A DNA stretch of 64,000 nucleotides from Dehalococcoidia bacterium (GCA_965261225.1 OZ253456.1:1190099-1254098), one strand, 5' to 3'. Shown: positions 26,574 to 42,351, numbered from the stretch's first letter. The notes: a model not told the origin generated them from the sequence alone. Numbers and translations are program-made.

Positions 26574-26906
26574 CTACTCCGACCCGCGCACGGCGCACAC
26601 TGGCACCTCAATGTCCAGCAGCGGCGCGTACTGCTGTCCACCGAAGCAGTCGCTGTCTTCAAGGTCGCCCGACGAGACGGGCCTGGGGATCGAGAACTTG
26701 ATCGCCAGCGCGTTATCACAGTTGAAGAAGAGCACGTCCTCCTCGTGTTGCTTGTAGATCTCCGCGACCAGCTTCTTGTTCAGCACCCCGGAATCGCGTA
26801 CCTGTTCGTACACGTCGACGTCATCGAACATGATGTCGAAGGTCAGCACGAAGGGTCCGGCGTTCTTGCTGCGCACCAGCTTGGTGACCTCCCAGAGCTT
26901 TGCCAT
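26574..26906 (-). CDS. Small conserved protein that co-occurs with AtuA-like proteins (DUF4387-like)
   Basis: The 110-aa ORF lies immediately downstream of the AtuA-like gene on the same strand and has non-repetitive composition (MAKLWEVTKLVRSKNAGPFVLTFDIMFDD...). Confidence 0.45.
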   Translation of the reverse strand: MAKLWEVTKLVRSKNAGPFVLTFDIMFDDVDVYEQVRDSGVLNKKLVAEIYKQHEEDVLFFNCDNALAIKFSIPRPVSSGDLEDSDCFGGQQYAPLLDIEVPVCAVRGSE

Positions 26907-26921
26907 GACGCGCCTCTACCT

Positions 26922-28292: not shown

Positions 28293-28486
28293 GAGGAGTC
28301 TCCCAAATCGCAAATGCCCGAAGTCCCACCGCAGCATCACCAGGGCAGGATTTGCGTCGGAGCATACCGAGTTCTCGTACCGCTCTCAAAGGACTCGACT
28401 ATTAGGGACCACGCCACCCTCGACCCAGACTCCGAACCCTCGTGCTTGCACTCGACATCACGCCAACAGATCGGGGAGGGCGCCGA

Positions 28487-28978
28487 TCATTCTGTCCGGA
28501 CAGATAGCCTCCCTTCCACAAGCCGGTCGCCGTCTGCGTCCACCCAGACGCCGTAGATGCCCATCCGTTGCGCGCCCCCGATGTCGTGCTCCAGGTTGTC
28601 GCCGACCATCCAGGCTTCGGTCGGCCCCACGCCCAGCGCTTCGAGCGAATGCAGGAAGGCTCGCTCGTCCGGCTTCCCGACCCCGAACTCTTCCTCGATC
28701 TGGATGTGGTGGAAGAAGCGGTCGAGGCTGAACCGTTCGATCTTTCGGCGCTGATTCCTGGTCTGGCCATTGGTCAGCAGACCGAGGCAGATGTCCGCCT
28801 CTCGAATCCGCTGGAGCGTGTCGATCACTCCGGGCAGGGGCTTCACCGCCTCCTCCCTGACGACGGTGAAGCGGTCGGCCAACTCGCGACAGAGCCTGCG
28901 CCAGACCTCGTCGGGGTTGCCGTACGAATCGAGGATGGTGTCGTCAAGGTCGAGGAGGAGCGCGTTGGGGAGATCCAT
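28487..28978 (-). CDS. HAD-superfamily hydrolase (subfamily IA)
   Basis: Motif I is LLLDLDDTILD, motif II is LGLLTNG, and motifs III/IV are VGK...MVGDNLEHDIGGAQRMG. The probable start is MDLPNALLLDLDDT. Confidence 0.75.
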   Translation of the reverse strand: MDLPNALLLDLDDTILDSYGNPDEVWRRLCRELADRFTVVREEAVKPLPGVIDTLQRIREADICLGLLTNGQTRNQRRKIERFSLDRFFHHIQIEEEFGVGKPDERAFLHSLEALGVGPTEAWMVGDNLEHDIGGAQRMGIYGVWVDADGDRLVEGRLSVRTE

Positions 28979-29304
28979 GGCGTCTTCGATCGTAGTTGGA
29001 TAGGGGCGGGTGAGATCGAGCCGGGTCGCAAGCACGCCTGCTCGGCGCGGCTCCGGACCTGCCCGATTGCCTCGGACTCGCCGACGAAGTAGCGCAGCCG
29101 TCGTCCGCCCGTGAGTGGGAAACGGTTCGTATCAGGGAATAGCGGAATAGCGGACCACACGATCGAGTGTTAGAAGTCAACGTCAGCGGCGTGTCTGGGG
29201 AACTAGAGGCCCGGCCCACTGGCTAAGCGCTAGCACCGACAACAGTTCATCGGCCCTCAGCGTCTTCACAGGTCAAGCGTAAACGTCAACTCGAAGTTTC
29301 TCGA

Positions 29305-30948
29305 TTAAGTCAAGTTTGGTGGGCCGGACTGGACAAAATCGAGAACCGATGTTTCGTCTCTGGTCACGCCGTCTGAAGGCATTGGAATGGTGTATCTCAA
29401 CGTCACGTCGTCATCGAGGACCTCGATTGATTTGACGAAGTTCCGAATCAGCGCCTTGCGCTCAGGAAACGTTCCCGCTTCGAGGAAGCCGCGGAAGTCG
29501 GACACGTACTCGGCAATCTCGGTGCTGGTCGGGAAGTCGGCTTTGCGCTGCCGCAACTGACGGTCCGCATCTTCCTGGGTGGCGGCGAGTTGATCCTCGC
29601 GCTGGCGCAGCGTGAGGATGCGCGGCGACAACGCCTGCATCGTCAGCTCCGTTGTCTCTAGCGCTTCATAGAGTCGTTCGAGCCGGCTGCGGACACCTGC
29701 CAACTCCGCCTCGATGGCCGTAAGTTGGCCGCCGAGCTCACCCGCCCAGGCGTCGATCTCCTCGGAGACCAGCACGATCAACTCAGTGATCGTCTCATCG
29801 GTCAGAATCCGTCCGAGGATGCGCTCGACAATGCGTGCCTCCACCCGGTCGGCGTTCAGGTAACGAGCGGAGAAGGAGCCGGCCCCTTCGCGCAGCAAGG
29901 TCCTACAGACGTAATAGAAGAAGCGGCCGCTCTTTGCTCCCTGGCCGGTGTAGGGATTGCCACAGATTCCGCAGCGGAGCAAACCACTGAGTAGGAACTT
30001 GCTGCCGACGCGGGCAGGCCGCTGCTTCTTCGGCGCGCGCTCCTGCAATCCCTGCTGGACCTCATTGAACAGTTCCCGCGAGACCAGGGCTTCCCAGGCG
30101 CCCTCGGTCCGTACCGGGTCGGGCTTCTTGTCGCCCGTCGTCGTGCGGCCCCAGATTGCCGTGCCTGTGTAGGCCTCATTGGTCAAGACGTAATGCAGAC
30201 TGTTACGTCGCCAACGCTTCCCCTTATTCGTGATTCCCCGCTCGTTGAGCTCGGCCGCAATCTCCTTCAGCCCAACGCCGCGCAGCGACTTCTCGAAGAT
30301 CTCCTTGACGATCGGACCAGTGTCCGGGTCGACCTGCAGTGTCGGTCGCTCCTTGGCGCCGTCCAGCACCTTGATCCGACGGTAGCCGAAGGGCGCCTTC
30401 GAACTCAAGAAGAATCCGCGCGAGGCGGCCTCGCGCATGCCGCGGGTCACTTCCTGGGCGAGATGCTCGGAATAGAACTCGTCCACGCTCTCGATGCTCG
30501 CCTCCATCAGCTTGCCGGTCGGCGTGTCGTCGGCGTGCTCAGTAACCGAGGTGACGCGGATCCCGCGCCGGCGCAACATCGATTTGAAGGCGACCGCGTG
30601 CTCACGCTTCCGAGTGAAACGAGAGAACTTCCAGACCAGTATCTCCTGCAACGGCGCGTCGGGTTGAGCCGCCTCATCCAGCATCTTGCGAAACTGGGGC
30701 CGGTCGGCGACGCGACCGCTCTCGGCCTCGTCTATGTACTCGCGCTCAATCAAGTAGCCATTCCGCTCCGCGTAGTCGCGAAGGGCGCGCAGCTGCGCCG
30801 CGATAGAGAGGTCGACATCCTGGCGGTCGCTGGAGACGCGGGCATAGAGGGCGGCGCTAAGGGGCGGGACTGCGGGATTCACTGATTGATGCTCTCGTTT
30901 CACGTCGCTGGGATAGGCACGTGAATGATCTGGCGTTCCAATGCTCAT
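29305..30948 (-). CDS. Large serine recombinase (resolvase-type catalytic domain, recombinase domain, zinc ribbon and coiled coil)
   Basis: It has the catalytic N-terminus AALYARVSSDRQ...SIAAQ...L..YA, the recombinase-domain pattern GKRWRRNSLHYVLTNEAYTG, a zinc ribbon LLRCGICGNPYTG...FYYVCR, and a C-terminal coiled coil. The start may be an internal GTG near 30870. Confidence 0.85.
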   Translation of the reverse strand: MSIGTPDHSRAYPSDVKREHQSVNPAVPPLSAALYARVSSDRQDVDLSIAAQLRALRDYAERNGYLIEREYIDEAESGRVADRPQFRKMLDEAAQPDAPLQEILVWKFSRFTRKREHAVAFKSMLRRRGIRVTSVTEHADDTPTGKLMEASIESVDEFYSEHLAQEVTRGMREAASRGFFLSSKAPFGYRRIKVLDGAKERPTLQVDPDTGPIVKEIFEKSLRGVGLKEIAAELNERGITNKGKRWRRNSLHYVLTNEAYTGTAIWGRTTTGDKKPDPVRTEGAWEALVSRELFNEVQQGLQERAPKKQRPARVGSKFLLSGLLRCGICGNPYTGQGAKSGRFFYYVCRTLLREGAGSFSARYLNADRVEARIVERILGRILTDETITELIVLVSEEIDAWAGELGGQLTAIEAELAGVRSRLERLYEALETTELTMQALSPRILTLRQREDQLAATQEDADRQLRQRKADFPTSTEIAEYVSDFRGFLEAGTFPERKALIRNFVKSIEVLDDDVTLRYTIPMPSDGVTRDETSVLDFVQSGPPNLT

Positions 30949-31028
30949 TGGAATAGTGTTCCGAACATACTATCCGATACGCCGGACCAGATGCTGAAAC
31001 AGACCTCACACACCACGCGTCATGCTGT

Positions 31029-31400
31029 TTAGGGTTGTCGAGTCACAACTCGGCCAGCTACAGGAGTGGATTCCCGCATCAGCGGGAGTAATAGACTTGG
31101 CGGGCTATTCGGCTTGTCAGCAGCCCGTTGGTCCGGCGGGATAAGGTCTGTTCCCAAGGATGTGAACGGGTTGATCACCGTGACGCCGCCATACTCCTGG
31201 CCAGCGTTCAAGTCCTCGGAGTAGACCGCGTCGCAATACGAAATCTGGTAGCGCTGGCTAATCACTGTGGCCGAGCGGAACAGCTCGATCGTCAGCGCCT
31301 GCACATGTCGCTTCGATAGTTCCTCAACAAACAGGATCGCAGCGTCGTGCGACAGTCTACCTGGTCGGCTCGGTCGGGTGACGTGGTAATAGAACTCTTG
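31029..31400 (-). CDS. Possible PIN-domain (VapC-like) protein
   Basis: The segment LLDSVDIVLSVQVLQEFYYHV...ISYCDAVY...GGVTVINPF loosely fits PIN-domain spacing. The listed ORF (to 31586) overlaps the higB remnant on the opposite strand, so the extent and even the reality of this gene are uncertain. Confidence 0.3.
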   Translation of the reverse strand, partial: QEFYYHVTRPSRPGRLSHDAAILFVEELSKRHVQALTIELFRSATVISQRYQISYCDAVYSEDLNAGQEYGGVTVINPFTSLGTDLIPPDQRAADKPNSPPSLLLPLMRESTPVAGRVVTRQP

Positions 31401-31511
31401 CAGAACCTGGACAGATAGGACGATGTCGACTGAGTCCAACAGACCGTCGGCGGCGCTGCCGGAGTGGTGCATAGCGCTTTGCCAGACGCCAAATGGAGGT
31501 ACGCTCGGCGA

Positions 31512-31791
31512 ATGATCCTGCGCATTCGGCACCGCGGAATGCGGCATTTCCACCGTCGCGGCGACCCAAGCGGATTGACTCCGCACGAGATCCCAGGAAT
31601 TCGCCGTATCGTGACAGCACTCGAAGTAGCGTCCGGACCAGGGGGACTCGGACGCGCCTACCTACCGATTGCATCCACTGAAAGGAAGCATGTCAGGATT
31701 GTGGACCGTTGACGCTTCCGCGAATCGCCGCATGATCTATCGCTTCGGAGAGAGAGACGTCACGGACGTTGACCTGCTCGACTACCACTGA
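31512..31791 (+). pseudogene. higB: higB-like toxin gene (copy 1) with a 1-nt insertion frameshift
   Basis: The N-terminal frame gives MILRIRHRGMRHFHRRGDPSGLTPHEIPGIRRIVTALEVASGP. The +1 frame gives LHPLKGSMSGLWTVDASANRRMIYRFGERDVTDVDLLDYH*. Both halves align with the intact copy at 32098-32376. The junction (around 31655-31668) carries 28 nt where the paralog has 27. Confidence 0.6.
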
Positions 31792-31802
31792 GGGAGAGTC
31801 CG

Positions 31803-32093
31803 ATGCCGATGAAGAACCCTTGTCATCCAGGCGAGCTGATCCTGTACGACTGGATCGGCGGTCTCAATCTGACCGTGGAGGCAGCCGCGGAGCATATGCA
31901 GGTGTCAGCCCAGTCGTTGGAGGACATCTGCCAGGGCAAGGCGCCGGTCACAACGGAAATGGCCGTGCGCCTCTCCAAAGCGCTCGGCAGCACACCTCGG
32001 TTCTGGATCCAACTACAGGCCAGCTACGACGCCTCCCAGGCCGACCAAATGCTCGACCAATTCAACATCAAGCGAATCGAACGGGCCGCCTGA
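31803..32093 (+). CDS. higA: HigA-family antitoxin (XRE-type HTH), copy 1
   Basis: The sequence MPMKNPCHPGELILYDWIGGLNLTVEAAAEHMQVSAQSLEDICQGKAPVTTEMAVRLSKALGSTPRFWIQLQASYD is the classic HigA N-terminus. The ribosome-binding site GAGGGAGAG precedes the ATG. Confidence 0.75.
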   Translation: MPMKNPCHPGELILYDWIGGLNLTVEAAAEHMQVSAQSLEDICQGKAPVTTEMAVRLSKALGSTPRFWIQLQASYDASQADQMLDQFNIKRIERAA

Positions 32094-32097
32094 GCCT

Positions 32098-32376
32098 GTG
32101 ATTACACACTTCCGACATCGCGGGGTGCGGCGTCTGCACGAGCGGGGCGACCAAAGTGGAGTCTCCGCTCGGCACGTCCGGAGGATCCGGCTCATTCTGC
32201 AGCAGCTAGACGTTGCGACGGGACCACAAGACATCGAGTTGCACTCGCTGGACTTGCATCCACTGAGGGGCGATCTCGCGGGACATTGGGCGCTGCGCGT
32301 GAGTGGTAACTGGCGGATCACGTTCCGTTTCGAAGAAGGTGATGTCCGCGATGTGGACTTGACCGACTACCATTAG
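32098..32376 (+). CDS. higB: HigB toxin (RelE/ParE superfamily, plasmid-maintenance killer protein), copy 2; GTG start
   Basis: The sequence (M)ITHFRHRGVRRLHERGDQSGVSARHVRRIRLILQQLDVATGPQDIELHSLDLHPLRGDLAGHWALRVSGNWRITFRFEEGDVRDVDLTDYH matches the HigB consensus throughout. Confidence 0.8.
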   Translation: MITHFRHRGVRRLHERGDQSGVSARHVRRIRLILQQLDVATGPQDIELHSLDLHPLRGDLAGHWALRVSGNWRITFRFEEGDVRDVDLTDYH

Positions 32377-32397
32377 GACGGCGAATGGAGACTAGCA

Positions 32398-32688
32398 ATG
32401 CCGATGTACAATCCGCCGCACCCGGGGGAAGGTGTTCTGGGCTTGTGCCTGGAACCGTTTGACCTGTCGGTCACGGACGCCGCGGCGCACCTTGACTTGG
32501 ACGAGGGGTATCTGGCCGACCTCTGCGCGGGGCGAGAGCGGATTACGGCTGACCTGGCAATCCGGCTGGAGCAGGCGTTCGGCGGCACCGCCGACAATTG
32601 GATGCGCGTGCAAGCGGCGTACGATCTCGCCCAGATGCGCCTGAAGTCAGACCACATCCAGGTCAAACCAATCGGCTCAGCAGCTTGA
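32398..32688 (+). CDS. higA: HigA-family antitoxin, copy 2
   Basis: The sequence MPMYNPPHPGEGVLGLCLEPFDLSVTDAAAHLDLDEGYLADLCAGRERITADLAIRLEQAFGGTADNWMRVQAAYDL is a paralog of copy 1. Confidence 0.8.
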   Translation: MPMYNPPHPGEGVLGLCLEPFDLSVTDAAAHLDLDEGYLADLCAGRERITADLAIRLEQAFGGTADNWMRVQAAYDLAQMRLKSDHIQVKPIGSAA

Positions 32689-32790
32689 CCACTGGGTCAG
32701 ATTGCAGACCGCCTACGACCTCGTCCAATCCGCAAGACAGCCTGCGACTTCAAGCGGATCAAGCGCGTAGCCTGACCATTCCGACACTGC

Positions 32791-33759
32791 CTAAAGCTGC
32801 TCCGGGGGAATGCCGTGCCAAGACAGTAAATCACCGGCGTCGGCATCTCTGACATCCTTCAGTTTGGGCGGATTGTCTTGATCATCGAGTGCTTCGTCCA
32901 ACTGACTCTGCGTAAGGCCAACGACGCCCTGCGATTCTTCGCGACGGCCACTATATTCGCCTTCTCTGTTGACTGACCAGGCACTAAACCGGGTCTCCGA
33001 CAAGACAGATTGACGTATGTTCGCACCACGGAAAGAGGCTCCGCCGAAAAAACAGCGACTAAGGTCCGCGTAACTTAGATTCGCGTCCCCTAAGTTGGCC
33101 CGCCTAAAGAACGCATCGTGAAACAGTACTCTCTCGAGATTCATTTCACGCAAGTCCCATCCCTCGAAGAATCTATCACTCAGATCGATCTGAAATTCTC
33201 GTCTCGCTTCGAGTGCCAGTTCAGCATCAGTACGGGACCCAATGAGTTTCAGCGCGGCAGCTTCATCCTCACGCAGCTTCGTGCCGAAACCGCCGTCGAA
33301 TGTGACGGCCGTAACGAGCTTTGAATCAGGAGGGTTTCGAATGAATGCAGCGAGCAAGGTCACCGTATCGACGTAATAGCGCTCTGGAACCTCCCGCGCT
33401 AGTGCACCCAAAGTGTGGATTGCACCCAGACGAACCGCATTCGAGTGATGCCCGAGCATTTCTGCGGCAGCCTGAAACCTCTGATTCGCGATCGCCTCTT
33501 GCGCTGCATCAACACTCTTCTGCGTTGCTTTGACTTGTCGCTCAGCCACCCAGCCCCTCCAGATTGCGAGCGGTAGCGCCAGTAAACCACCCATCATCAG
33601 CATGACGTTGCGAACCGTCGTGCTCAGGCTCTCACTCGTGCCGTTTGGCGTCGTGGAGAGGTCGCCCCAGAAGCCCGCTGATAGCCCTGCTCCGACACCC
33701 AGCACGACGACAACAGCGACGCTGAACCAGAATGTCCCTGACCTCAATAGGCGCCTCAT
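32791..33759 (-). CDS. Membrane-anchored pentapeptide-repeat protein
   Basis: Two N-terminal hydrophobic helices (FWFSVAVVVVLGVGAGLSAGFW and VMLMMGGLLALPLAIW) are followed by pentapeptide repeats (RANLGDANLSYADLSRCFFGGASFRGANIRQSVLSETRFS). The start codon overlaps the stop of the upstream restriction-modification gene as ATGA. Confidence 0.7.
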   Translation of the reverse strand: MRRLLRSGTFWFSVAVVVVLGVGAGLSAGFWGDLSTTPNGTSESLSTTVRNVMLMMGGLLALPLAIWRGWVAERQVKATQKSVDAAQEAIANQRFQAAAEMLGHHSNAVRLGAIHTLGALAREVPERYYVDTVTLLAAFIRNPPDSKLVTAVTFDGGFGTKLREDEAAALKLIGSRTDAELALEARREFQIDLSDRFFEGWDLREMNLERVLFHDAFFRRANLGDANLSYADLSRCFFGGASFRGANIRQSVLSETRFSAWSVNREGEYSGRREESQGVVGLTQSQLDEALDDQDNPPKLKDVRDADAGDLLSWHGIPPEQL

Positions 33760-36700
33760 CGGTCAGCCTCCGAGATCTTCGTGATACCCGCCGCCCGACG
33801 AGCCACTTCTGAGAACCATGCCACCTCGGACACCTCCAACCCCCTCCCCAACACCTTCGACTCACGGTAGCTCAGCCACTTCTTTAGCACCTGGTAGCCG
33901 CCTAGCCGATACTCCCACACCTCGATCGGCACGTCTTTCCAATACGCTCGATCGTTCAGATACACATCCACCATGTCTCCCCGACGCACCACCTTGCCCT
34001 GGCCGGGCATGACGGCTTGGTTGGTTCCGAAGTGGCCCCAGCCGGCGCTGATTTTGAAGTCGTTGGGTTGCATCGGGGCGCCGTCGGTGGTGGTGGGGAC
34101 GGCGATGCTGGTGTCGAGGAGGTCGCTGACGTCGGACTCGGTGTCTAGCAGGCGGGCGAGTCGGCGGCCTCGGGCGGCGGACTCGGCCAGGGCGTCGGCG
34201 CTGTCGGGCAGGGGGATGCGGGGCCAGCCCATGCGCAGACCGCCGGCGTTGGCCTCGCGGTAGGCGGGGTCGTGCAGCGTGGCGAGGACGTGGTGGAAGA
34301 GGTCCTCAGGCTCGGCGCTCATGGACTCGATGTAGGCCTGCGCCCGCTCGCTCAGGTTGGCGGTGCGCTTGACGCCGTTCACTTCTTCGCCGAACTGGTC
34401 GTCTCGGAGGTAGAGGGGGACGCATGTCGCGCTCCGGTCGAACAGGTCGAGACAACCAATCGTCGATATCACTTGCGCTGGTGACCACTCGCGACGCGGC
34501 TTCTGTTGCGAAACTATCGCCAAGTTGCCGGGAAACACGTGCGGTCGATACTCAGGTCGCGGTCGATCCAATAGTCCCGTCTTTTCCGACCAGTAGAGCC
34601 AACGGACATCAAACGGACGGTAGGCGTAGCGAATGAAGTCAGAGTCAGCCGCTTCAACGAGTTCGCTGATCCGCTTCCTGAGATCATCCAAGTTGATGTC
34701 TACGACCAGGGAGTCACGGCTCGTCTTTACGCCAGGGAAGTAGGCAGGAAACAGATCTAGCAGCGAGGGCCACTCGAACCAGTCGTCACTCACTGCGACA
34801 GGAGAGAAAGGCAAGCCCAAACCAGCCATCGGCCTGACCGACCCATATAGCGCTGAAGGATCCACCCCAGCAGACTCATCCAGTTCCCGCGACTTGCTGG
34901 TTCCCCACAGCTCACGCCAATCGATCTGTTCCGCGCTCTGATGCGACTCCTTACGTACTAATGTCGCGATGGCCGTCCCCACCTGGATGCCGACCGGATT
35001 GTCGGACGTGGAGAAGATGCTGGGATCGGAATCGCCCTCTGGGGTGAGCTTGCCGGTTCGGTATTTGTCTCCGTTGAGGTTGTCGATTCGGACGATGTCG
35101 AAGGCGTCGAGGTAGCGCTGTCTCATGCCAGGGAAGGAGAGGCCGTCGAGCCAGGAGTAGTTGCTGATGAAGCAGACGATGCCCTGGCCGGTCTTCTCGG
35201 CGATGCGGCGCTCGGCCATGCGGAAGAAGCGGACGTAGAGGTCGTTGAGACCCTGGCCCTGCGGTTTGGGCAGGTCGGCGCCGGGAACTTGCTTAACGGT
35301 GCGGTAGGCGTCGGTCAGGTTGCGCTCTTCGTCTACCTCGGCGACGCCGGGGAAGCCGTTGTAGGGCGGATTGCCGAGCACGACCAGGATTGGGCGCTGC
35401 TGCTTGACCTCGGTGGCGTCCTTGCGCTCCTGTTCGAGTTCGGGGAAGGGCAGCGGCTTGGTCGTATGCGGCTCCCAGCCGGTCAGGGCGTTGGTCAGGA
35501 AGACTCCGGCGCGCTGGCTGGGCGCAAGTCCCGCGCCCATCTGCTCCAGCGCCAGCCCGATCTCCAGGTGCGAGACAACCAGAGGGGCGGGCATGATCTC
35601 GAATCCGAAGACCCGCGTCGCGGCGGCCTGCCGGACCGACTCGGCCCAGGCCGCCCCACCGCCCGATGACTGCTCCGTCTCGGCAATCCGGCGCAGCGTC
35701 TCGACCAGGAAGGCGCCCGTTCCGCAGCACGGGTCGAGCACGTAGACGCGCTCATCGGCCAGTCCCTTGGCGATACCGAGGTCGTCGCGCAGCGCCCGGT
35801 CGACACGCGCCACCATGTAGCGGACCACCTCGCGCGGCGTGTACCAGACGCCGAGGTCCTTGCGCAGCTTCGGGTCGAAGGCTTCCAGGAACGGCTCATA
35901 GAAATACTGCACCGCTTCACCCTCGCTGAAGCGCTTGAGGAAGGCCTCACGGTCAACCCGCTCCAACGCAGCCTCGGTCCAGTCCAGCACGTCGTTCAGC
36001 GCCAGCCGTTCCAGCCGGCCGGGATCGGTGAGCTGGTGGAACAGCATCCGCAGCACGGGCGCGCGCAGGTAATCGCGCGTGTCCTTCCAGCGGAAGCGGT
36101 CCGCTGATTTGCTGGATGGGCCGCCCCGCGCCCAGAGCACCCAGGCGGCGAAAATCCCATAGAACAGCGTCTGCACGAGAGTCGAGCGGAAGAACTCCTC
36201 GCCGCGCTCGTCCTCGAAGGACATGCCGAGCGCCTGCTCGATGGAGTCGCGAATCGGTTTGAGCGAGTCCTCTTCCTCCTCCGCCTGTTCAACCCGCTGC
36301 AACGCATCGCGGGCATACGAGGCGAGCAGTCGGGCGAGGTCGCGCGGCTCGGAAATGGTCGAGCGGTGCGACATCACCCGCAGCAGATACTCGCCCAGCG
36401 AGACGCCGTGTCGATTGGCGGCGGTCACACGATGCTTCAGAAGGTCGTCGAATGCTGCAACCGTGTTGGCCGCGCTGTAGCGTTCCAGCGTCGCCTTTGA
36501 GCCGCTGTTGTCCTGTCCGACCAGCGCGAACTCGCGCAGATTCGTGACCAGCACGAGCTTGTGCTTCTGCCAGTACGTATCGACCTGCTCGGAGGCGATT
36601 AGCTCATCGAGGTCGGCGTCAGCGCCCTTGACCTCGACAACGCCGCGGTCCGGTCCGGTCGCAAGCGCTTCGCCGGCGCTTGAGAAGAACCCCAGGTCCG

Positions 36701-36902
36701 GTTGATGGCCACCCTGTTCGGAGTAATGCACAACGGCGCGGACTCGATGCGCGAGTTGAGCGCCGATCGCATTGAACAGATTCGCCAGCGCGGTGTAGTG
36801 CGATAGCTCCGGCGTTCCGACGAGGCTGACCTCTGCGATGGCGTCGAGGTACGCCTTGACCGCTTGCCTGAGTTCATTCACTGTGGTGACCCAGCTTCCC
36901 AA
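33756..36902 (-). CDS. Type IIL/IIG restriction-modification enzyme, MmeI-like (N-terminal PD-(D/E)XK nuclease, gamma-class N6-adenine methyltransferase, C-terminal target-recognition region)
   Basis: The N-terminus has D...EVK (HQPDLGFFS...GVVEVKGADADLDEL). The methyltransferase has the region VWYTPREVVRYMV, motif I VYVLDPCCGTGAFL and motif IV LGNPPYNGF. The length is 1048 aa with no helicase motifs. Confidence 0.75.
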   Translation of the reverse strand: MGSWVTTVNELRQAVKAYLDAIAEVSLVGTPELSHYTALANLFNAIGAQLAHRVRAVVHYSEQGGHQPDLGFFSSAGEALATGPDRGVVEVKGADADLDELIASEQVDTYWQKHKLVLVTNLREFALVGQDNSGSKATLERYSAANTVAAFDDLLKHRVTAANRHGVSLGEYLLRVMSHRSTISEPRDLARLLASYARDALQRVEQAEEEEDSLKPIRDSIEQALGMSFEDERGEEFFRSTLVQTLFYGIFAAWVLWARGGPSSKSADRFRWKDTRDYLRAPVLRMLFHQLTDPGRLERLALNDVLDWTEAALERVDREAFLKRFSEGEAVQYFYEPFLEAFDPKLRKDLGVWYTPREVVRYMVARVDRALRDDLGIAKGLADERVYVLDPCCGTGAFLVETLRRIAETEQSSGGGAAWAESVRQAAATRVFGFEIMPAPLVVSHLEIGLALEQMGAGLAPSQRAGVFLTNALTGWEPHTTKPLPFPELEQERKDATEVKQQRPILVVLGNPPYNGFPGVAEVDEERNLTDAYRTVKQVPGADLPKPQGQGLNDLYVRFFRMAERRIAEKTGQGIVCFISNYSWLDGLSFPGMRQRYLDAFDIVRIDNLNGDKYRTGKLTPEGDSDPSIFSTSDNPVGIQVGTAIATLVRKESHQSAEQIDWRELWGTSKSRELDESAGVDPSALYGSVRPMAGLGLPFSPVAVSDDWFEWPSLLDLFPAYFPGVKTSRDSLVVDINLDDLRKRISELVEAADSDFIRYAYRPFDVRWLYWSEKTGLLDRPRPEYRPHVFPGNLAIVSQQKPRREWSPAQVISTIGCLDLFDRSATCVPLYLRDDQFGEEVNGVKRTANLSERAQAYIESMSAEPEDLFHHVLATLHDPAYREANAGGLRMGWPRIPLPDSADALAESAARGRRLARLLDTESDVSDLLDTSIAVPTTTDGAPMQPNDFKISAGWGHFGTNQAVMPGQGKVVRRGDMVDVYLNDRAYWKDVPIEVWEYRLGGYQVLKKWLSYRESKVLGRGLEVSEVAWFSEVARRAAGITKISEADR

Positions 36903-37020
36903 CCAACGACACCAACTTCGACATCAATAGACACTTTACTCCCGGCTCTCTAGCTCTCTCCCTTGTCAGTCGAGAGTTGACTTCAGTCGCAATCGTGGGG
37001 CATTTGGTGCAGAGGAACTA

Positions 37021-38035
37021 GTGTCCTGAGTCGGGAATACGGTTGAGATATGCGGCGAGGTTGTCGAAGATCTGGTCGGCGGTCTTGTGTCAGACGAAGG
37101 GGCGCGGATGTTCGTTCCAGCCGGCGACCCAGCGTTCGATGTCGCCGGTCAGGTCAGACACGCGACAGTGGGCGCCGCGCCGGAGCCATTTGGTGGTCAG
37201 TTCGGCGAACCAGCGCTCAACCAGGTTCATCCAGGAGGTGGGCGTGAAGTGAAAGCGGAAGCGGGGATGACGCTGGAGCCAACGCTGGATCTCGGCGGTG
37301 CGGTGGGTGGCCACGTTGTCCAAGACGACATGCACGGCGAGTTCGTCGGGTACCTGCTCGTCAATCAGGTCGAGGCAGCGCCGGAACTCGCGGGCCCGGT
37401 GTCGCGGAGTCAGGTCGGCGATCACGTGTCGCGAGGCGATATCCAGCGCCGCGTAGAGATTGGTGGCCCCGTGACGCACGTAGCCGTGAGTCTGACGGCG
37501 AGGCGCCGCCGGGCAGCATCGGCCGCGTCGCAGCGGTGCGGTCAAGCGCCTGGATCTGGGTTTGCTCGTCCACGCACAGCACGACCGCCGCGTCGGGCGG
37601 GTCGACCAATGGGTCGCGTGGCGCGGTTGCTGTTCCAGCGTCTTGACGATCACCGCTTCCACCTGCTCATCGCCGATCGTGCGGGGCGCGTCGGGACGCG
37701 GCTCATCGCTCAGCCCATCCAGCCGCCGCTGGGCGAAGCGTCGCCGCCACTTGCCGGCCGTGACCGGATGGCAACCGAGCGCCGCGCCGATCTCAGTATG
37801 CGCCTGCCCGGCCGCCGCCGCGAGCACAATCCGGCTGCGTAGCGCCAAGGCCTGCGCCGTGCTCGGTCGGCGCGCCCAGCGCTCCAGCGTCTCTCGCTCC
37901 TCCGCACTCAACACGATCGTCACCGTCGGGCGGCCCTGTCGGGTACGCATGACACTCCAGCGAAAGCCCCGGACGGCCAAACCGGCTCCATCAACACCAG
38001 ACCCCGTTGTTCATCGCATTAGCGACTCAGGACAC
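37021..38035. mobile_element. IS630-family insertion sequence, degenerate (about 1.0 kb)
   Basis: The terminal inverted repeats are (C)TAGTGTCCTGAGTCG at 37018-37033 and CGACTCAGGACACTG at 38023-38037. The flanking dinucleotides are TA and TG, consistent with IS630 TA-target duplication allowing one mismatch. Confidence 0.65.
37090..37980 (-). pseudogene. IS630-family transposase with an internal deletion and frame change
   Basis: The N-terminal HTH region (RSRIVLAAAAGQAHTEIGAALGCHPVTAGKWRRRF) and the C-terminal DDE region (HVVLDNVATHRTAEIQRWLQRHPRFRFHFTPTSWMNLVERWFAEL) are present. The central ALVLCVDE...QALDRT segment is readable only in another frame (ORF 37361-37609), and about 50 aa are missing ahead of it. 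Confidence 0.7.
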
Positions 38036-38139
38036 TGGGGAGTATCCCGTTCCGGGCGGGGCGACCGCCCCACCCAGACACCCCGTGTATCGGGACTTCT
38101 CCGATTGCTGGCCGGGGCCTGCGATGACGCATGATCGGG

Positions 38140-41100
38140 CTACCCGTCCGGTCCGACGACGGTAAACTCCAACCCGTTGGAGAGCTTCCTGCCGTCACCG
38201 GTGCAGATGGCCCCCTGGTCGTCGCAGTCATTGGTGACGGGAAGGACGATGGTCACGTTCCCGTTGGCGTGCGGTTGCACAGTGATTCGCCACTGGATGT
38301 TGCTAGGCTTTTCCACCCGCTGCGCTTTCTTCACCGTTCCCCCAGTCACCGTGAACGCATCAAACTTCAGGTTCCTGAAGCTCAGCGCGACCTCCTCGCT
38401 GAAGCGGATTTCGAACGTGAATACGTCAGTGCCGTTGTGAATAGTGGGATTGTTCTCCAAGCTGACGGTCAGCGGGATGAGAGCCGCCGTCACCGCGTCC
38501 GTTGCGGCGCTGGTCAAAGACTCCGCGTTGCTCCGGTCGTCGATGAAGTTCACCCGTACCTGAATGGTCTGTCCCTGCTCGCTGGACGTGAGGGTGTAGG
38601 CGGAGCCCGTGGCTCCGGCGATGTCCGACCCACCGGCAACCCACTGGTAGGTGAAGGTGGCGCCAACGAGCCCGTCAGCGTCAGCGATGCCGGAGGTGTT
38701 CGCCGTCAACGTCTCGCCAACCTGGGCGGTGCCGATGATTGTCGGCGCTGCGGTGGCGGGGCTGTTGGGCGCGGCGTCTACTGCTGCCGTCGCCGCGCTG
38801 GTCAGCGTCTCCCCGTTGTCGGCGTCGTCGGTAAAGGACACCTTAACCTTGATGGTCCTGCCCTCGTCGTCGGCAGCCAGGGAGTAGGTAGAGCCCGTCG
38901 CGCTTGTGATGTCCGAGTCCGAGCTACCGTCGTTTCTTATCCACTGGTAGCTGAAGGACACGTTGCTCAGCCCGTCGGCGTCGGCGATGGCAGAGGTGTC
39001 CGCCGTCAATGTCTCCCCGACCTGGGCAGCGCCGCTGATGGCGAGAGCCCCGGTGGCCGGGCTGTTGGCTACCTGTTGCTGGACAGCAAAGCTGACCGAA
39101 TCCGTCGCCGCGCTGGTCAGGGATTCTGCGTACCCGCCCCTGTCGGTGAAGGCGACCCGGACCTTGACGATCTTTCCCTCGTCGGCTGCAACCAAGATGT
39201 AGGTAGAGTCGGTTGCGCCCGTGATGTCAGCGTCTGCGCTCCCATCGTTGGTTACCCATTGGAACCGGAACTGCACCTGGTCCAGACCGTTTCCGTCCTC
39301 TATTCCCGTCGTATCGGCGGTGAAGCTCTCTCCGACCTGCGCCGTGCCATTGATGACAGGCGCGCCACTGGCCGTCACGTTGTCCGGCCTGGCCTGTTTG
39401 CCCAACGAAGATTGGTTCGTGGAGCCCACTTGCCTGAAATCGGACCAATCCGAGGAGCTGTGAGCGTTTCTGGCACGTACCTGGAACCAGTGCGTGGAGC
39501 CGGGGTCCAGTTTGCTGATGATGCCCCCCGCCCCGTAGAACGCGATCTCAACGCCGTCTCCCGGCAGGTCCATCCACTGGCCGTTCCGGAACAGCTGCAC
39601 GTCGTAGGAATCGGCCCCCGGCACATCGTTCCACTCCAGGTCTACGCCCCCGACGAAGACCGCAGTCCCGACCGGCCGATCCGGAGTGTCCGGAGCGCTG
39701 ACCGGCGGCGGCGGCGGTCCGGCTATCTGCAGGGCGGGAGCAACCGTCAGAGTCCCTCCGTCCGCGGTGCAAAGCGCCCCCACCTCGGTACACGCCCGGT
39801 TCAGCGGCGTGAGTATCGACACCGGCCCGTTCCCCGAGGGCTGAAGCGTCAGATCCCAGAGGGTCTTGAGTCCTTCCACCTGCTCTGCGCCGGTCACCGT
39901 CCCACCGAACACCGTCAACGCGTGGTCGCGCATGTCCTCGGGCGTTATCTCCACGTCCTCGCTGAAGGCCATCCGCAGCGTGAACGCGCTCGACCCGTCA
40001 TGGGACAACGGCGGGTTCTCGAAGGCTGCCATCAGTGGCTCGGCCGCGGTCGCCATGGACGCAGCGGCTTTGGTAATCCAGAGCTGGTACACCCTCCGAT
40101 CGAAGGCGGTATGCCCTTCGACTCTAGCGTTCGGGCCAATGACCCAGATCGACCTGTAGCGATTCTGTCTGCCCAACTTGAGGTCGAACCTGTCCATCTC
40201 GAGGTCGAACTGAACGCCGGCCAGGTCCGGGTCCTCGTCGATAGCATCCAGCCGGACCGTCTCGGTGCGCATCAGGCGCACGTCCGGGTCGGGTGAGTTC
40301 TTCTCCACAGACACCGTTACCGCGGTCGTGCCGGAGGACACCCTGATCTTGAAGGTGGCTGCATTCGTGCCCAGGTGAAAACCCGGTGTGAACGAGAGCA
40401 GCGTCCCGTTGACCGGCGTCACCGTGAGCGTCTTCAGTCTCACATCCGCCGCCGGGCCGCCGCCACCTTCTCCCCGACGGACCGTCACTCTGTAGGTCTT
40501 GGTCTCGTTGCCGTCCGCCGAGGTGACGGTCACCCTCCAGGTGGTGGAGCCTTCCGGCACGTCGAGCTTCGCCGTGGCGCCGCCGTCCCAGCGGTCGCCG
40601 GCGGTGAAGGTGCCGGCGGGACCGGTGACGACGACCGTGGCGCCCGTGGCGTAGGGCGCTGCCTGCATGGTCAGCTCACTGAAGGAGTGGCGCCCGTCGT
40701 AACTGTAGGTGTCTGACCCTATCCCGCCGAGCCAGATTCCGCCCTTCGTCGTGAGCCACAGCTTCGACAGCCGCGCATCGTCCTCCTTGCCCACCCAGCG
40801 CTTGATTTCCTGCCCCAACGCATCGCCGGCAGCGGTGCAGATGGGGTGGCCGGAGGAACTGCAGTCCAGGGTTTGCCGCACGCGGATGCGGACCGGATCC
40901 CCCGAGCTGGGCGTGATCGTCATCGTGAAGTTCCGCTTGCTGCTGCCCACCGCGGCGAGGTCGCTCTTGGTCCCGTTCTTGATCCCGACTGCCCCGTCGA
41001 GGTTGTCGATCGAGTCGTCGGAGATGTCCTTGTTGAACTTGAGCGTCACCGAGAACGCCGTGCTCCCGTCGTGGGACGACGGCAGGTTCTCGATCCGCCC

Positions 41101-42198
41101 ACTGAGTCCCCCGCCGCGGTCCACGATCACCGTGTAGACCTTCATGGTGCTGTCGTCCGGCGCCGTGACCTGCACGGTGAAGGTGTTGAGGCCGGGCGAG
41201 ACATCCCCATAAATCTCGTCTGCGTCCCCGGTGTCCTCTTGCGTGCTCCCGTCGGGACGGGTTACCACCAACTCGGCGCCGGCTTCGGTCGCCGTCGCAC
41301 TCAAGATAGCTACCGTGACTCCGCTGGGAACTCCGGCTGTGTACTGGGTCGTGTCCGGGGAGAATGCAGGGTCGAGGGGCGCGTTGTTCGTAATTACCAC
41401 ATCAGTTAAGTAGTCGACTCTGAGGCTTTTCAGCGTCGCATCGTCGGAGGCCATCACGGTCGCCTCCGACAGCTTGACCTCCACCGTATCCCCGACGCTC
41501 CAGCCCCTGCCGGTTTGAACGTCGAGAAATCCATCGCCCTCCGGATCGAGGAAATCGAAACTTCTGCTGCCCAGATCAAGGGTGTAGCCCGAGCCTGAGA
41601 GATCGCCGGTGTAGTACAACTCCAGATAAGTGCCATCGTGGGTGAGCTGGTTCACGGTGATGGGCGAGCCGTTGCGGGTGAATTCATTGGGCGTTAGCGC
41701 GCCATATGAAATGGAGAATGAAGTGGCGAACCCGGTAAAAGCGATTGAGGTTGGGTGCTGCCCGACCGTGAGCGTGGCGCACCAGAGGACGTCGCACTCC
41801 TGGGCCTGCGCCCGGGCCGGTAGGGCCAGGAGCGCGGCGAAGGCCACGAGCAGCAACACGGCCGATATCCGCCAACGTGCGAGAGAACCAACGCGGACGG
41901 ACCGGGCCAGCGCTGCGCCGAGGATGGTTCGGCTGGTCGCGCCGGACCGGGCCGCGTCAGCAGGCTCGGTTGGTGCGGACGCGCGAGGAAGAGCACCGCC
42001 GGACTTACGGGATGCCGCCGGAGGGTTGGCGGCGAGTGGCTCGTCCGCAATCGAAGATTCGTCCACAGCCGACGAGGAACGTTCACCTGACCGGCTGCGC
42101 CGCCAGCGGCTCAGCCCAGTCATGCCACGCCGCCGCCGCAGCGCGTCGAGAACGCGTGATTCGTAGGCGCTGTGCGGCTGCGCAGGCGCGTGCTTCAT
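38140..42198 (-). CDS. Giant adhesin-like surface protein (about 1350 aa) with an Arg-rich N-terminal leader plus hydrophobic anchor, cadherin-like beta-sandwich domains, an FN3 domain and Ig-like YQW repeats
   Basis: The listed ORF runs to 42327, but homology with the divergent paralog places the start at MKHAPAQ (42198). The leader is RWRRSRSGERSSS...RISAVLLLVAFAALLALPARAQAQ. Downstream features include the CDVLWCATLTVGQ motif, LKSLRVD...FSPD...YTA cadherin-like patterns, and three YSYQWIRNDGS...GATxSTY...VKVSFTDD repeats. Confidence 0.7.
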   Translation of the reverse strand: MKHAPAQPHSAYESRVLDALRRRRGMTGLSRWRRSRSGERSSSAVDESSIADEPLAANPPAASRKSGGALPRASAPTEPADAARSGATSRTILGAALARSVRVGSLARWRISAVLLLVAFAALLALPARAQAQECDVLWCATLTVGQHPTSIAFTGFATSFSISYGALTPNEFTRNGSPITVNQLTHDGTYLELYYTGDLSGSGYTLDLGSRSFDFLDPEGDGFLDVQTGRGWSVGDTVEVKLSEATVMASDDATLKSLRVDYLTDVVITNNAPLDPAFSPDTTQYTAGVPSGVTVAILSATATEAGAELVVTRPDGSTQEDTGDADEIYGDVSPGLNTFTVQVTAPDDSTMKVYTVIVDRGGGLSGRIENLPSSHDGSTAFSVTLKFNKDISDDSIDNLDGAVGIKNGTKSDLAAVGSSKRNFTMTITPSSGDPVRIRVRQTLDCSSSGHPICTAAGDALGQEIKRWVGKEDDARLSKLWLTTKGGIWLGGIGSDTYSYDGRHSFSELTMQAAPYATGATVVVTGPAGTFTAGDRWDGGATAKLDVPEGSTTWRVTVTSADGNETKTYRVTVRRGEGGGGPAADVRLKTLTVTPVNGTLLSFTPGFHLGTNAATFKIRVSSGTTAVTVSVEKNSPDPDVRLMRTETVRLDAIDEDPDLAGVQFDLEMDRFDLKLGRQNRYRSIWVIGPNARVEGHTAFDRRVYQLWITKAAASMATAAEPLMAAFENPPLSHDGSSAFTLRMAFSEDVEITPEDMRDHALTVFGGTVTGAEQVEGLKTLWDLTLQPSGNGPVSILTPLNRACTEVGALCTADGGTLTVAPALQIAGPPPPPVSAPDTPDRPVGTAVFVGGVDLEWNDVPGADSYDVQLFRNGQWMDLPGDGVEIAFYGAGGIISKLDPGSTHWFQVRARNAHSSSDWSDFRQVGSTNQSSLGKQARPDNVTASGAPVINGTAQVGESFTADTTGIEDGNGLDQVQFRFQWVTNDGSADADITGATDSTYILVAADEGKIVKVRVAFTDRGGYAESLTSAATDSVSFAVQQQVANSPATGALAISGAAQVGETLTADTSAIADADGLSNVSFSYQWIRNDGSSDSDITSATGSTYSLAADDEGRTIKVKVSFTDDADNGETLTSAATAAVDAAPNSPATAAPTIIGTAQVGETLTANTSGIADADGLVGATFTYQWVAGGSDIAGATGSAYTLTSSEQGQTIQVRVNFIDDRSNAESLTSAATDAVTAALIPLTVSLENNPTIHNGTDVFTFEIRFSEEVALSFRNLKFDAFTVTGGTVKKAQRVEKPSNIQWRITVQPHANGNVTIVLPVTNDCDDQGAICTGDGRKLSNGLEFTVVGPDG

Positions 42199-42351
42199 CC
42201 CAGCCTCCCGTTCCTCATCGACACGCATGCACGGGCTCGGACGCTGTGCACGCACGAGAAGCCGGACCACGCTTGAGCGGGCCCAGACGACTTCCGCCCG
42301 CGGAATCGCATCCTGCACGCGTGACACCGGCGAGGCGAGGCCCAGAGTTCC

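What the first reader, a model, noticed from the sequence alone, without database searches (positions are those of the whole stretch)
32791..36902. MmeI-like Type IIL restriction-modification enzyme translationally coupled (ATGA overlap) to a membrane pentapeptide-repeat protein
Single-chain Type IIL enzymes normally need no partner. Here the downstream gene overlaps by 4 nt and encodes two transmembrane helices plus a pentapeptide-repeat beta-helix. That fold mimics B-form DNA in Qnr and MfpA. A DNA-mimic or membrane-tethered modulator co-translated with a nuclease-methyltransferase could act as an antitoxin-like regulator or a localisation factor. I do not know of such a pairing.
Basis: inference. 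Interest (0 to 1): 0.6.

Follow-up and report, generated by a model that had tools for sequence, protein, structure and literature searches.

The report
Restriction enzyme gene with coupled membrane-protein gene
A single-chain restriction-modification enzyme gene overlaps by four bases a gene for a membrane-anchored pentapeptide-repeat protein, and this pairing recurs in related Chloroflexota genomes. The second gene behaves like a swappable, self-sufficient passenger gene, probably defence-related, and not like a regulator the enzyme needs.

Summary
A 1041-aa DrdV-like Type IIL/IIG enzyme (33756-36881, minus strand) overlaps by ATGA a 322-aa protein (32791-33759). That protein has two N-terminal hydrophobic helices, a stalk, HEAT-like helices and a short pentapeptide beta-helix.

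The pairing is not chance. I found 12 distinct paired loci in Chloroflexota/Dehalococcoidia MAGs, 8 with the same 4-nt overlap. Partner identity falls to 31%, and the two genes diverge in step.

The antitoxin or DNA-mimic reading is not supported:
- None of 80 other homologues of the enzyme carries the partner.
- A collinear sister island has the defence gene ApeA exactly where the partner sits.
- Other relatives carry TIR, AIPR, Fic, HNH, Schlafen, STAND or Abi genes in that slot.
- The partner persists intact in 12 loci where the enzyme is deleted or absent.
- Its beta-helix is short (about 4 coils), uncharged and the fastest-evolving region, whereas helix 2 and the stalk are about 80% conserved.
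- Its N-terminal module defines a family of about 1000 clusters, often solo genes on plasmids.

Best reading: a co-transcribed, autonomous accessory membrane protein in the enzyme's variable cargo slot, probably a defence sensor/effector. Its function is untested. Interest is moderate.

The parts
33756..36881 (-). Single-chain Type IIL/IIG restriction-modification enzyme gene (1041 aa; the maximal ORF extends to a TTG at 36902)
   Evidence: ORF. Identical 1041-aa database protein P0121. PADLOC REase_MTase_IIG 7.6e-94. DrdV is the best solved relative.
36372..36881 (-). N-terminal PD-(D/E)xK-type nuclease domain (about aa 1-170), with motif PD62...E83-V-K85
   Evidence: D62, E83 and K85 are invariant in 16 homologues of 61-100% identity. 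The AF2 N-terminal domain is alpha/beta with pLDDT 75-88. The PADLOC IIG profile covers residues 15-517.
35070..35903 (-). Gamma-class N6-adenine methyltransferase domain (motif I VLDPCCGTGAF, motif IV NPPY)
   Evidence: Pfam N6_Mtase 3.6e-10, with weaker Eco57I and MmeI_Mtase hits. Both motifs are invariant.
33846..34646 (-). C-terminal target-recognition domain (Type_ISP_C). The stretch 34420-35068 shows no nucleotide match to the sister island L035.
   Evidence: Pfam PF18135 8.6e-50. Gap in nucleotide similarity between the window and L035.
33767..33771 (-). Shine-Dalgarno-like GGAGG for the partner gene, lying inside the enzyme's coding sequence
   Evidence: Sequence. GGAGG or GGTGG/GGTGA stands at the same place in 7 loci.
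33756..33759 (-). ATGA start/stop overlap (translational coupling)
   Evidence: The same NTGA overlap occurs in L006, L009, L010, L015, L017, L102 and L108.
32791..33759 (-). Partner gene: 322-aa membrane-anchored HEAT-like/pentapeptide-repeat protein
33658..33738 (-). Hydrophobic helix 1 (aa 8-34)
   Evidence: Kyte-Doolittle score 2.1-2.5. AF2 helix 8-34.
33457..33627 (-). Hydrophobic helix 2 (about aa 52-66) running on into a long stalk helix (aa 45-101). This is the most conserved part of the protein.
   Evidence: AF2 helix 45-101. Kyte-Doolittle score 2.3 over 15 residues. Mean pairwise identity 80-82%.
33310..33456 (-). HEAT-like helical repeat (aa 102-150)
32941..33192 (-). Right-handed quadrilateral beta-helix of about 15 pentapeptides (aa 190-273). 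It is the fastest-evolving region and has net charge 0.
32794..32940 (-). Conserved acidic C-terminal cap (GLTQSQLDEALDD..PP.L..V.DA..G..L.WHG), net charge -9
   Evidence: Invariant columns. Charge.
32694..33784 (-). Swappable cassette: the last ~25 nt of the enzyme gene, the partner gene and ~97 nt downstream. It is replaced by an ApeA (HEPN) gene in the otherwise collinear island L035.
   Evidence: blastn breakpoints. ApeA_NTD1 and HEPN_Apea domains in L035:2295-3632.
31636..32688 (+). Two tandem HigB-like/HigA-like toxin-antitoxin modules, convergent with the partner gene (HigA 32398-32688 and 31803-32093; HigB-like about 32149-32361 and a fragment at about 31636-31779). They are part of the conserved island.
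   Evidence: The same arrangement follows the partner in L002-L008 and follows ApeA in L035.
29305..30948 (-). Large serine recombinase of the island, 80% nt identical to that of L035
   Evidence: Pfam Resolvase, Recombinase and Zn_ribbon_recom. Collinearity.
37090..37980 (-). IS630-like DDE_3 transposase just upstream of the enzyme gene. The outer edge of similarity to a second assembly lies at 38041.
   Evidence: Pfam. L001 matches the window at 99.99% over 22791-38041 only.

Best explanation
This is a two-gene operon on a serine-recombinase/IS-bearing mobile island.

Gene 1 is a complete, self-sufficient DrdV-like Type IIL restriction-modification enzyme.

Gene 2 sits in the variable 'cargo slot' that follows this enzyme family. 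In other members that slot holds known abortive-infection or defence genes. Gene 2 encodes an autonomous membrane protein. Its N-terminus and its roughly 250-residue C-terminal part face the cytoplasm, and a two-helix hairpin anchors it.

Shown:
- conserved co-translation signals;
- co-divergence with the enzyme in one clade;
- independence of each gene from the other;
- cassette-like replacement by ApeA.

Inferred: the partner is a second-line defence sensor/effector. The fast-evolving HEAT-like/pentapeptide beta-helix would be the recognition surface for a phage or DNA-associated ligand. The highly conserved helix 2 and stalk would be the output, either oligomerisation with membrane permeabilisation or a block to DNA entry. 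The Hailong channel HalA, which also contains pentapeptide repeats, is the precedent. Coupling to the enzyme gene would serve joint, low-level expression and joint mobility, not regulation of the nuclease.
For: Pairing and coupling:
- 12 paired loci, 8 with an NTGA overlap and a Shine-Dalgarno-like motif.
- All paired enzymes fall in one clade of the family tree.
- Identity of the two genes correlates across loci, rho 0.80.

Slot logic:
- L035 is collinear (enzyme 80-89%, HigBA 83%, recombinase 80% nt identity) but carries ApeA instead of the partner.
- Other homologues have, directly downstream and often with a -4 overlap: TIR (L038), AIPR (L042), Fic (L048), HNH (L025), Schlafen (L028), a STAND NTPase (L044), an Abi family protein (L112), and an AAA ATPase plus partner (L111).

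Autonomy:
- The partner is intact in L002, L004, L007, L011-L014, L016, L018, L100, L103 and L109.
- L004 keeps a mini-ORF made of the enzyme's N- and C-termini that still overlaps the partner's start.
- Solo partners lie next to AAA_21, CAP12-TIR, NmeDI_C and DpnII/QueC-type genes.
- Plasmid homologues lie next to toxin-antitoxin, integrase and IS genes.

Architecture:
- Helix 2 and the stalk are 80-82% identical across the family, against 38% for the beta-helix.
- No enzymatic domain is detectable.
- HalA (PDB 9nyi) shares a pentapeptide module (reviews PMC13434031 and PMC13586616).
- The partner gene has lower GC (0.568) than its surroundings.
Against: - No experiment ties this family to phage defence.
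- PADLOC has no model that hits the partner, and I found no paper describing it.
- Adjacency could persist passively, because overlapping genes are hard to separate.
- Several solo copies sit beside housekeeping genes (ApbA, Iso_dh, POR).
- The second hydrophobic segment is short (15-17 residues), so the topology is uncertain.
- No pore or oligomer was modelled.
- Long co-divergence with one enzyme clade is more than typical defence-island neighbours show, so a direct functional link remains possible.
Confidence: 0.5

Rival explanations
1. Membrane tether or modulator of the enzyme. The partner binds the Type IIL enzyme co-translationally and holds it at the inner face of the membrane, where phage DNA enters, or it tunes cleavage against methylation.
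For: - The NTGA overlap is conserved down to 31% partner identity.
- The two genes co-diverge, rho 0.80, with two congruent clades.
- The cytoplasmic part is acidic, net charge -10.
- Translational coupling favours assembly of operon-encoded complexes (general knowledge).
Against: - None of 80 homologues of the enzyme, including close ones in the same clade (L020-L028, L097), has the partner.
- ApeA replaces it in a collinear island.
- The partner stays intact long after the enzyme is lost, in three loci without any remnant.
- The putative binding domain is the least conserved region and varies in length.
Confidence: 0.17
2. One reading: a DNA-mimic, antitoxin-like inhibitor that protects the host from the nuclease.
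For: - The pentapeptide fold mimics DNA in MfpA and Qnr (established knowledge).
- DNA mimics such as Ocr do inhibit related BrxX/PglX enzymes (structures 8zek, 9ex7 and 8q56 appear).
- The genes are coupled.
Against: - The beta-helix has only about 4 coils and net charge 0.
- Qnr models score 16.6 against a cut-off of 240.
- The enzyme family is viable without the partner: 80 of 80 loci lack it. Type IIL enzymes protect the host through their own methyltransferase domain (DrdV paper).
- A membrane anchor is odd for a DNA mimic.
- The order of loss fits any autonomous gene and is not diagnostic.
Confidence: 0.05
3. A non-defence passenger. The partner is a membrane protein with an unrelated cellular role, such as envelope or stress signalling or protection of a topoisomerase. 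It is linked to the enzyme only by shared descent on a mobile element.
For: - The family is large and widespread: 959 clusters at E<=1e-10.
- Many copies are solo, some beside housekeeping genes.
- No defence database hits it.
- Four-nucleotide overlaps are common in operons.
Against: - The slot is otherwise filled by recognised defence or abortive-infection genes.
- Paralogues cluster: L002, L013 and L019 carry extra copies, and L008 and L009 carry one on each side of the enzyme.
- The repeat domain evolves fast.
- Copies sit next to TIR, AAA_21, restriction enzyme, Cas1 and toxin-antitoxin genes.
Confidence: 0.23

Closest known systems
[quoted passage not shown]
   Same: Same length class (1029 against 1041 aa) and same domain order: N-terminal nuclease, helical connector, gamma-class N6A methyltransferase, C-terminal recognition domain. 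It is the best sequence and fold match (architecture from bioRxiv 10.1101/2021.01.06.425610).
   Different: Only about 20% identity over the fold alignment. The N-terminal 316 residues match by fold and motif only. DrdV is described as acting alone, with no coupled partner gene.
[quoted passage not shown]
   Same: Homologous methyltransferase and Type_ISP_C recognition domains.
   Different: There is no RecA-like ATPase/translocase domain, so this is not a Type ISP enzyme. The PGAP name on homologues of this length is misleading.
MmeI family (Type IIL)
   Same: Same overall single-chain logic, with a D...ExK nuclease motif at the N-terminus.
   Different: The MmeI Pfam domains are not met: MmeI_Mtase scores 22.2 against 27, the others do not hit. 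MmeI is absent from the top 50 fold matches.
Restriction-linked abortive-infection genes (PrrC inside the EcoprrI hsd operon; Abi, AIPR, TIR or ApeA genes next to restriction genes in defence islands)
   Same: A second, unrelated gene is co-transcribed with a restriction system on a mobile island, and the slot is exchangeable. PrrC/EcoprrI is from my own knowledge.
   Different: PrrC needs its restriction partner to stay silent, whereas this partner persists without the enzyme. The partner has no nuclease, NADase or HEPN domain. The pairing is much longer-lived than a typical island neighbourhood.
HalA of the Hailong system (PDB 9nyi)
   Different: The domain order differs: HalA's repeats lie near its N-terminus (residues 82-149), whereas here the hydrophobic helices come first. 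There is no HalB nucleotidyltransferase gene. The only similarity is in the repeats.
Qnr, MfpA, AlbG and McbG pentapeptide DNA mimics
   Same: Same right-handed quadrilateral beta-helix fold.
   Different: By my own knowledge those are soluble, dimeric, about 8-10 coils long and anionic. This one is membrane-anchored, about 4 coils long and neutral, with extra HEAT-like and stalk modules. The NCBIfam Qnr models score far below cut-off.

Membership tests
Type IIL/IIG single-chain restriction-modification enzyme (DrdV type) | Nuclease and methyltransferase in one polypeptide, with an N-terminal PD-(D/E)xK nuclease | tested here: met
   PD62...E83xK85 is invariant. The AF2 N-terminal domain is alpha/beta. 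The PADLOC IIG profile covers residues 15-517.
Type IIL/IIG single-chain restriction-modification enzyme (DrdV type) | Gamma-class N6-adenine methyltransferase motifs I and IV | tested here: met
   VLDPCCGTG and NPPY are invariant. Pfam N6_Mtase hits.
Type IIL/IIG single-chain restriction-modification enzyme (DrdV type) | C-terminal target-recognition domain in the same chain, with no separate S subunit | tested here: met
   Type_ISP_C scores 170 bits. The profile aligns with DrdV residues 282-894.
Type IIL/IIG single-chain restriction-modification enzyme (DrdV type) | Methylates one strand only and cuts at a fixed distance from an asymmetric site | not testable with these tools
   This needs biochemistry or methylome data.
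MmeI family | Matches to the MmeI-specific Pfam domains (MmeI_Mtase, MmeI_TRD and others) above their gathering scores | tested here: not met
   MmeI_Mtase scores 22.2 bits against 27, and no other MmeI domain hits.
Type ISP restriction-modification enzyme | RecA-like ATPase/translocase domain between the nuclease and the methyltransferase | tested here: not met
   No helicase or ATPase hit. The protein is 1041 aa against 1406-1578 aa for LlaGI and LlaBIII, and only their methyltransferase and recognition regions align.
Pentapeptide-repeat protein | Tandem A(D/N)LXX repeats forming a right-handed quadrilateral beta-helix | tested here: met
Qnr/MfpA-type DNA mimic | Soluble dimer of about 8-10 coils with an anionic surface the size of B-DNA, and family model scores above cut-off | tested here: not met
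   About 4 coils, net charge 0, membrane-anchored. NF033086 scores 16.6 against 240. Dimerisation was not tested.
Toxin-antitoxin-like pair (enzyme as toxin, partner as antidote) | The toxin gene does not occur stably without its antidote | tested here: not met
   None of 80 homologues of the enzyme carries the partner. ApeA replaces it in the collinear island L035.
Hailong (HalA/HalB) | A HalA channel paired with a HalB nucleotidyltransferase, with homology beyond the repeats | tested here: not met
   Only the pentapeptide stretch matches (E 0.023). No nucleotidyltransferase gene is adjacent.
Restriction-linked abortive-infection or accessory defence gene | Co-transcribed with a restriction system in an exchangeable slot on a mobile island | tested here: met
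Restriction-linked abortive-infection or accessory defence gene | Confers phage resistance or infection-triggered growth arrest | not testable with these tools
   This needs expression and phage assays.

The most novel reading that the evidence does not exclude
The family of two-helix anchor, stalk, HEAT-like repeat and pentapeptide-repeat proteins (about 1000 clusters) is an undescribed class of membrane-acting anti-phage sensor/effector. In this Chloroflexota clade it would be functionally wired to a Type IIL enzyme, for instance gated by DNA ends or fragments that the enzyme makes, or released when a phage blocks the enzyme. That would give a restriction-plus-abortive-infection unit with a HalA-like, nucleic-acid-gated membrane output.
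Probability: 0.15. Interest if true: 0.75.

Novelty: new variant of a known kind. Interest (0 to 1): 0.45.

Why it matters
If the partner proves to be a defence protein, a large and widespread family of unannotated 'pentapeptide repeat-containing' membrane proteins would gain a function. Pentapeptide repeats would join HalA as sensor modules of membrane effectors.

The locus also gives an unusually clean natural experiment. The same island exists with the partner, with ApeA, and with the enzyme deleted down to a mini-ORF. This shows how the gene after a single-chain restriction enzyme is exchanged as a cassette.

If the partner is only a passenger, the finding is an ordinary operon in a mobile island of an uncultivated Chloroflexota bacterium.

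Tried and rejected
- dN/dS of partner genes, paired against solo: synonymous sites are saturated in every pair, so no estimate was possible.
- Promoter and terminator scan of 32300-37300: no more hits than in shuffled sequence, so uninformative.
- Foldseek against afdb50: the library was not available.
- Phage genomes and IMG/VR viral contigs: only repeat-level hits or none, so there is no evidence for a phage-borne or anti-defence origin.
- PADLOC on the partner: no hit.
- Full-length AF2 model of the enzyme: poor (pLDDT 50). I used it only for the N-terminal domain and for ranking folds.
- The primary Hailong paper is not held, so I relied on a review, a 2026 NAR paper and the PDB entry.
- A search for cj0031/cj0033 found no paper, so the Campylobacter adjacency could not be followed to sequence.
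- Homology between the partner and HalA: rejected, because only the repeats match and the domain order differs.
- A conserved alternative partner across the enzyme family: rejected, because downstream ORFs form no cluster larger than two apart from the pentapeptide partner.

Full report
**1. Observation**

On the minus strand, an ORF at 33756-36902 (1048 codons from a TTG) is followed by an ORF at 32791-33759 (322 codons). The junction reads GGAGGCTGACCGATGAGG. The partner's ATG therefore overlaps the upstream TGA by four bases, and a Shine-Dalgarno-like GGAGG lies 7 nt upstream. The database protein identical to the large ORF, and the family consensus, start at the GTG at 36881, giving 1041 aa.

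**2. The enzyme**

- Pfam finds N6_Mtase and a strong Type_ISP_C recognition domain (170 bits). MmeI_Mtase is below threshold (22.2 against 27), and no other MmeI domain hits.
- PADLOC's Type IIG profile matches at 7.6e-94 from residue 15.
- The best solved relative is DrdV. Single-sequence search gives E 1.8e-41, the profile gives 1.2e-52 over DrdV residues 282-894, and Foldseek gives 6e-24 over about the full length. The Type ISP enzymes LlaBIII and LlaGI follow, then BpuSI.
- DrdV is a 1029-aa single-chain Type IIL enzyme with nuclease, helical connector, methyltransferase and recognition domains. Its methyltransferase and recognition domains resemble those of Type ISP enzymes (bioRxiv 10.1101/2021.01.06.425610).
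- In 16 homologues of 61-100% identity, PD62...E83-V-K85, the motif I DPCCGTG and the motif IV NPPY are all invariant.
- The N-terminal 170 residues model as an alpha/beta domain. The rest of the full-length model is poor.
- There is no ATPase domain.

The enzyme is therefore a complete DrdV-like Type IIL/IIG enzyme. It is 'MmeI-like' only in the broad sense, and it is not Type ISP, although PGAP gives that name to plasmid homologues.

**3. The partner**

- Pfam Pentapeptide scores 40.6 bits. The Qnr and HetL models are far below their cut-offs, and PADLOC finds nothing.
- An AF2 model built on 27 homologues is good (pLDDT 86, pTM 0.72). It shows helix 8-34, helix 45-101, HEAT-like helices 107-141, a small alpha/beta linker, a beta-helix at about 190-273, and a C-terminal cap.
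- Hydrophobicity supports two segments at about residues 10-30 and 52-66. The second is short.
- Positive charges before helix 1 and after helix 2 suggest that both termini are cytoplasmic. This is inference from the positive-inside rule.
- The beta-helix has about 15 pentapeptides and net charge 0. The C-terminal cap has net charge -9.
- Across the family, helix 2 and the stalk are 80-82% identical on average. The beta-helix is 38.5% identical.

**4. Is the pairing conserved?**

The partner has 221 relatives in the word-indexed search. Twenty-seven of them are full-length at 46-62% identity. A scan of species-representative genomes gave 16 loci, all from Chloroflexota/Dehalococcoidia MAGs. 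I added loci from contig look-ups. The tally is as follows.

| Class | Number | Loci |
|---|---|---|
| Enzyme plus partner | 12 | window/L001, L005, L006, L008, L009, L010, L015, L017, L019, L102, L107, L108 |
| Of these, NTGA overlap with a Shine-Dalgarno-like motif | 8 | window, L006, L009, L010, L015, L017, L102, L108 |
| Partner only, with remnants of the enzyme's 3' end just upstream | 6 | L002, L004, L011, L013, L014, L016 |
| Partner only, with no trace of the enzyme | 6 | L007, L012, L018, L100/L101, L103, L109 |

- In L004 the remnant is a mini-ORF. It joins the enzyme's first ~15 residues to its last ~55 and still overlaps the partner's start. The partner has therefore kept the enzyme's expression signals.
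- Pairwise identities of the enzyme and the partner correlate (Spearman 0.80 over 36 locus pairs). The pairs are not independent, but the two clades are congruent.
- In a neighbour-joining tree of 85 enzymes, all paired ones fall in one clade. That clade also contains unpaired members.

**5. The reverse test**

A metagenome scan with an enzyme profile returned 80 loci at 44-67% identity. A partner HMM found nothing in any of them. Downstream ORFs there form no recurrent family. Many of them are recognisable defence or abortive-infection genes, several with the same -4 overlap:

- TIR (L038), AIPR (L042) and Fic (L048);
- HNH (L025), Schlafen (L028), ApeA-HEPN (L035), a STAND NTPase (L044) and DUF7689 (L097);
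- on plasmids, an 'Abi family protein' (L112), an AAA ATPase with a second gene (L111), and DUF5131 with TcmP (L110).

The key case is L035, which is collinear with the window. The enzyme is 80-89% nt identical, the HigBA block 83% and the serine recombinase 80%. The partner cassette (window about 32694-33784) is replaced by ApeA. The enzyme's recognition-domain stretch (34420-35068) has no nucleotide match, as expected for a change of specificity.

**6. The wider partner family**

- The N-terminal 190 residues alone (anchor, stalk and HEAT-like repeat) find 2074 representative clusters at E<=1e-3 and 959 at E<=1e-10.
- Plasmid homologues in Streptomyces, Acaryochloris, Prescottella and others share the stalk, the HEAT-like repeat and a variable number of pentapeptides. 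They are solo genes next to transposase, integrase and toxin-antitoxin genes.
- Solo copies in the MAGs lie beside an AAA_21 ATPase, CAP12-TIR, NmeDI_C or DpnII/QueC-type genes in some loci. In others they lie beside housekeeping genes.
- Paralogues cluster. L002, L013 and L019 hold extra copies. L008 and L009 have a second, frameshifted, 30-42% identical copy immediately upstream of the enzyme.
- No relatives occur in phage genomes or viral contigs beyond repeat-level hits.

**7. Interpretation**

The enzyme does not need the partner, and the partner does not need the enzyme. That rules out a strict antidote or obligatory-subunit relationship. The short, neutral, fast-evolving beta-helix argues against Qnr-style DNA mimicry.

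Three things remain to be explained: long-term linkage with conserved translational coupling, positional equivalence to defence cargo, and an architecture of a constrained membrane/stalk module joined to a variable repeat module. The best fit is an autonomous accessory membrane protein, co-expressed and co-mobilised with the enzyme, and probably a second-line defence sensor/effector (confidence 0.5). A direct tether or modulator role stays possible (0.17). A non-defence passenger is also possible (0.23). A DNA-mimic antidote is unlikely (0.05). The membrane output (pore, or block to DNA entry) is inference. It leans on the precedent of HalA, which shares only the repeat module (PMC13434031, PMC13586616).

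**8. Literature**

I found no paper describing this pairing or this family as a defence system. Pentapeptide repeats are mentioned as variable modules in conflict systems (PMC7159879, PMC10853773). A C. jejuni strain comparison lists a cj0031-type Type IIG gene followed by a 'pentapeptide repeat-containing protein' in one strain and an AAA ATPase in the other, without comment (PMC8713573). This shows the same variable-slot pattern in another phylum. I could not check whether that protein is homologous.

**9. Verdict**

The feature is real and conserved. It is a new variant of a known kind: a restriction gene with an exchangeable, co-transcribed accessory gene. It is a reasonable lead to a function for a large unannotated protein family. 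Interest 0.45.

Noticed in passing
window 31636-32688 (+): Two tandem HigB-like/HigA-like toxin-antitoxin modules converge on the partner gene. The same modules follow the partner in L002-L008 and follow ApeA in L035, so they belong to the conserved island backbone.
   Followed up: partly
L035:2247-3651 against window 32694-33784: This is a clean cassette swap. An ApeA (HEPN) defence gene replaces the partner gene between an 80-89% identical enzyme gene and an 83% identical HigBA block.
   Followed up: yes
L004:9800-10004: A mini-ORF is left by an in-frame internal deletion of the enzyme gene. The N-terminal 'LSELRQAVK' is fused to the C-terminal '...KKWLSYRD...'. It still overlaps the partner's start by GTGA.
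   Followed up: partly
L008:4613-5933; L009:5865-6783: A second, divergent (30-42% identical) partner paralogue, split into two frames, lies immediately upstream of the enzyme gene, so the enzyme is flanked by partner genes. The frameshifts may be assembly errors.
   Followed up: partly
window 34420-35068: This stretch of the enzyme's recognition domain has no nucleotide match to the otherwise 80-89% identical L035 gene. That suggests a different recognition specificity.
   Followed up: no
window 37090-38041: An IS630-like transposase lies just upstream of the enzyme gene. A second assembly (L001) is 99.99% identical over 22791-38041 and unrelated beyond 38041, so the IS edge marks a rearrangement or an assembly break.
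   Followed up: partly
window 33001-34000: There is a local drop in GC (0.568 against about 0.60-0.63 in the neighbouring 1-kb windows) and a strong negative GC skew (-0.208) over the partner gene. This fits a cassette of separate origin.
   Followed up: no
window 10623-15664 (-), 38140-42327 (-), 45368-53500 (+): There are very large ORFs (636-2710 aa) rich in cadherin, Big_9 and fibronectin-III domains, which look like surface adhesion proteins. They are unrelated to the finding.
   Followed up: no
window 42513-43646 (-) and 54116-56473 (-): A tyrosine integrase and a ResIII/Helicase_C protein lie further along. They may be more mobile or defence content in the window.
   Followed up: no
plasmid loci L110-L112: NCBI's PGAP names helicase-less, roughly 1100-aa homologues 'type ISP restriction/modification enzyme', apparently because of the shared Type_ISP_C domain. 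The name is misleading for this family.
   Followed up: partly
L019:8925-9917; L107:4960-5523; L102:8302-8595: Extra small ORFs sit in or after some pairs. L019 has a 330-aa ORF weakly like a nucleoside deoxyribosyltransferase, and L107 a 187-aa ORF, between the enzyme and the partner. L102 has a 97-aa ORF that overlaps the partner's stop by 4 nt.
   Followed up: no
PMC8713573, Table 2 (C. jejuni CAMSA2038, DDV75_00180/00185): A cj0031-type Type IIG gene is followed by a 'pentapeptide repeat-containing protein'. The sensitive sister strain has an AAA ATPase there instead. This may be an independent instance of the pairing; I did not obtain the sequence.
   Followed up: partly
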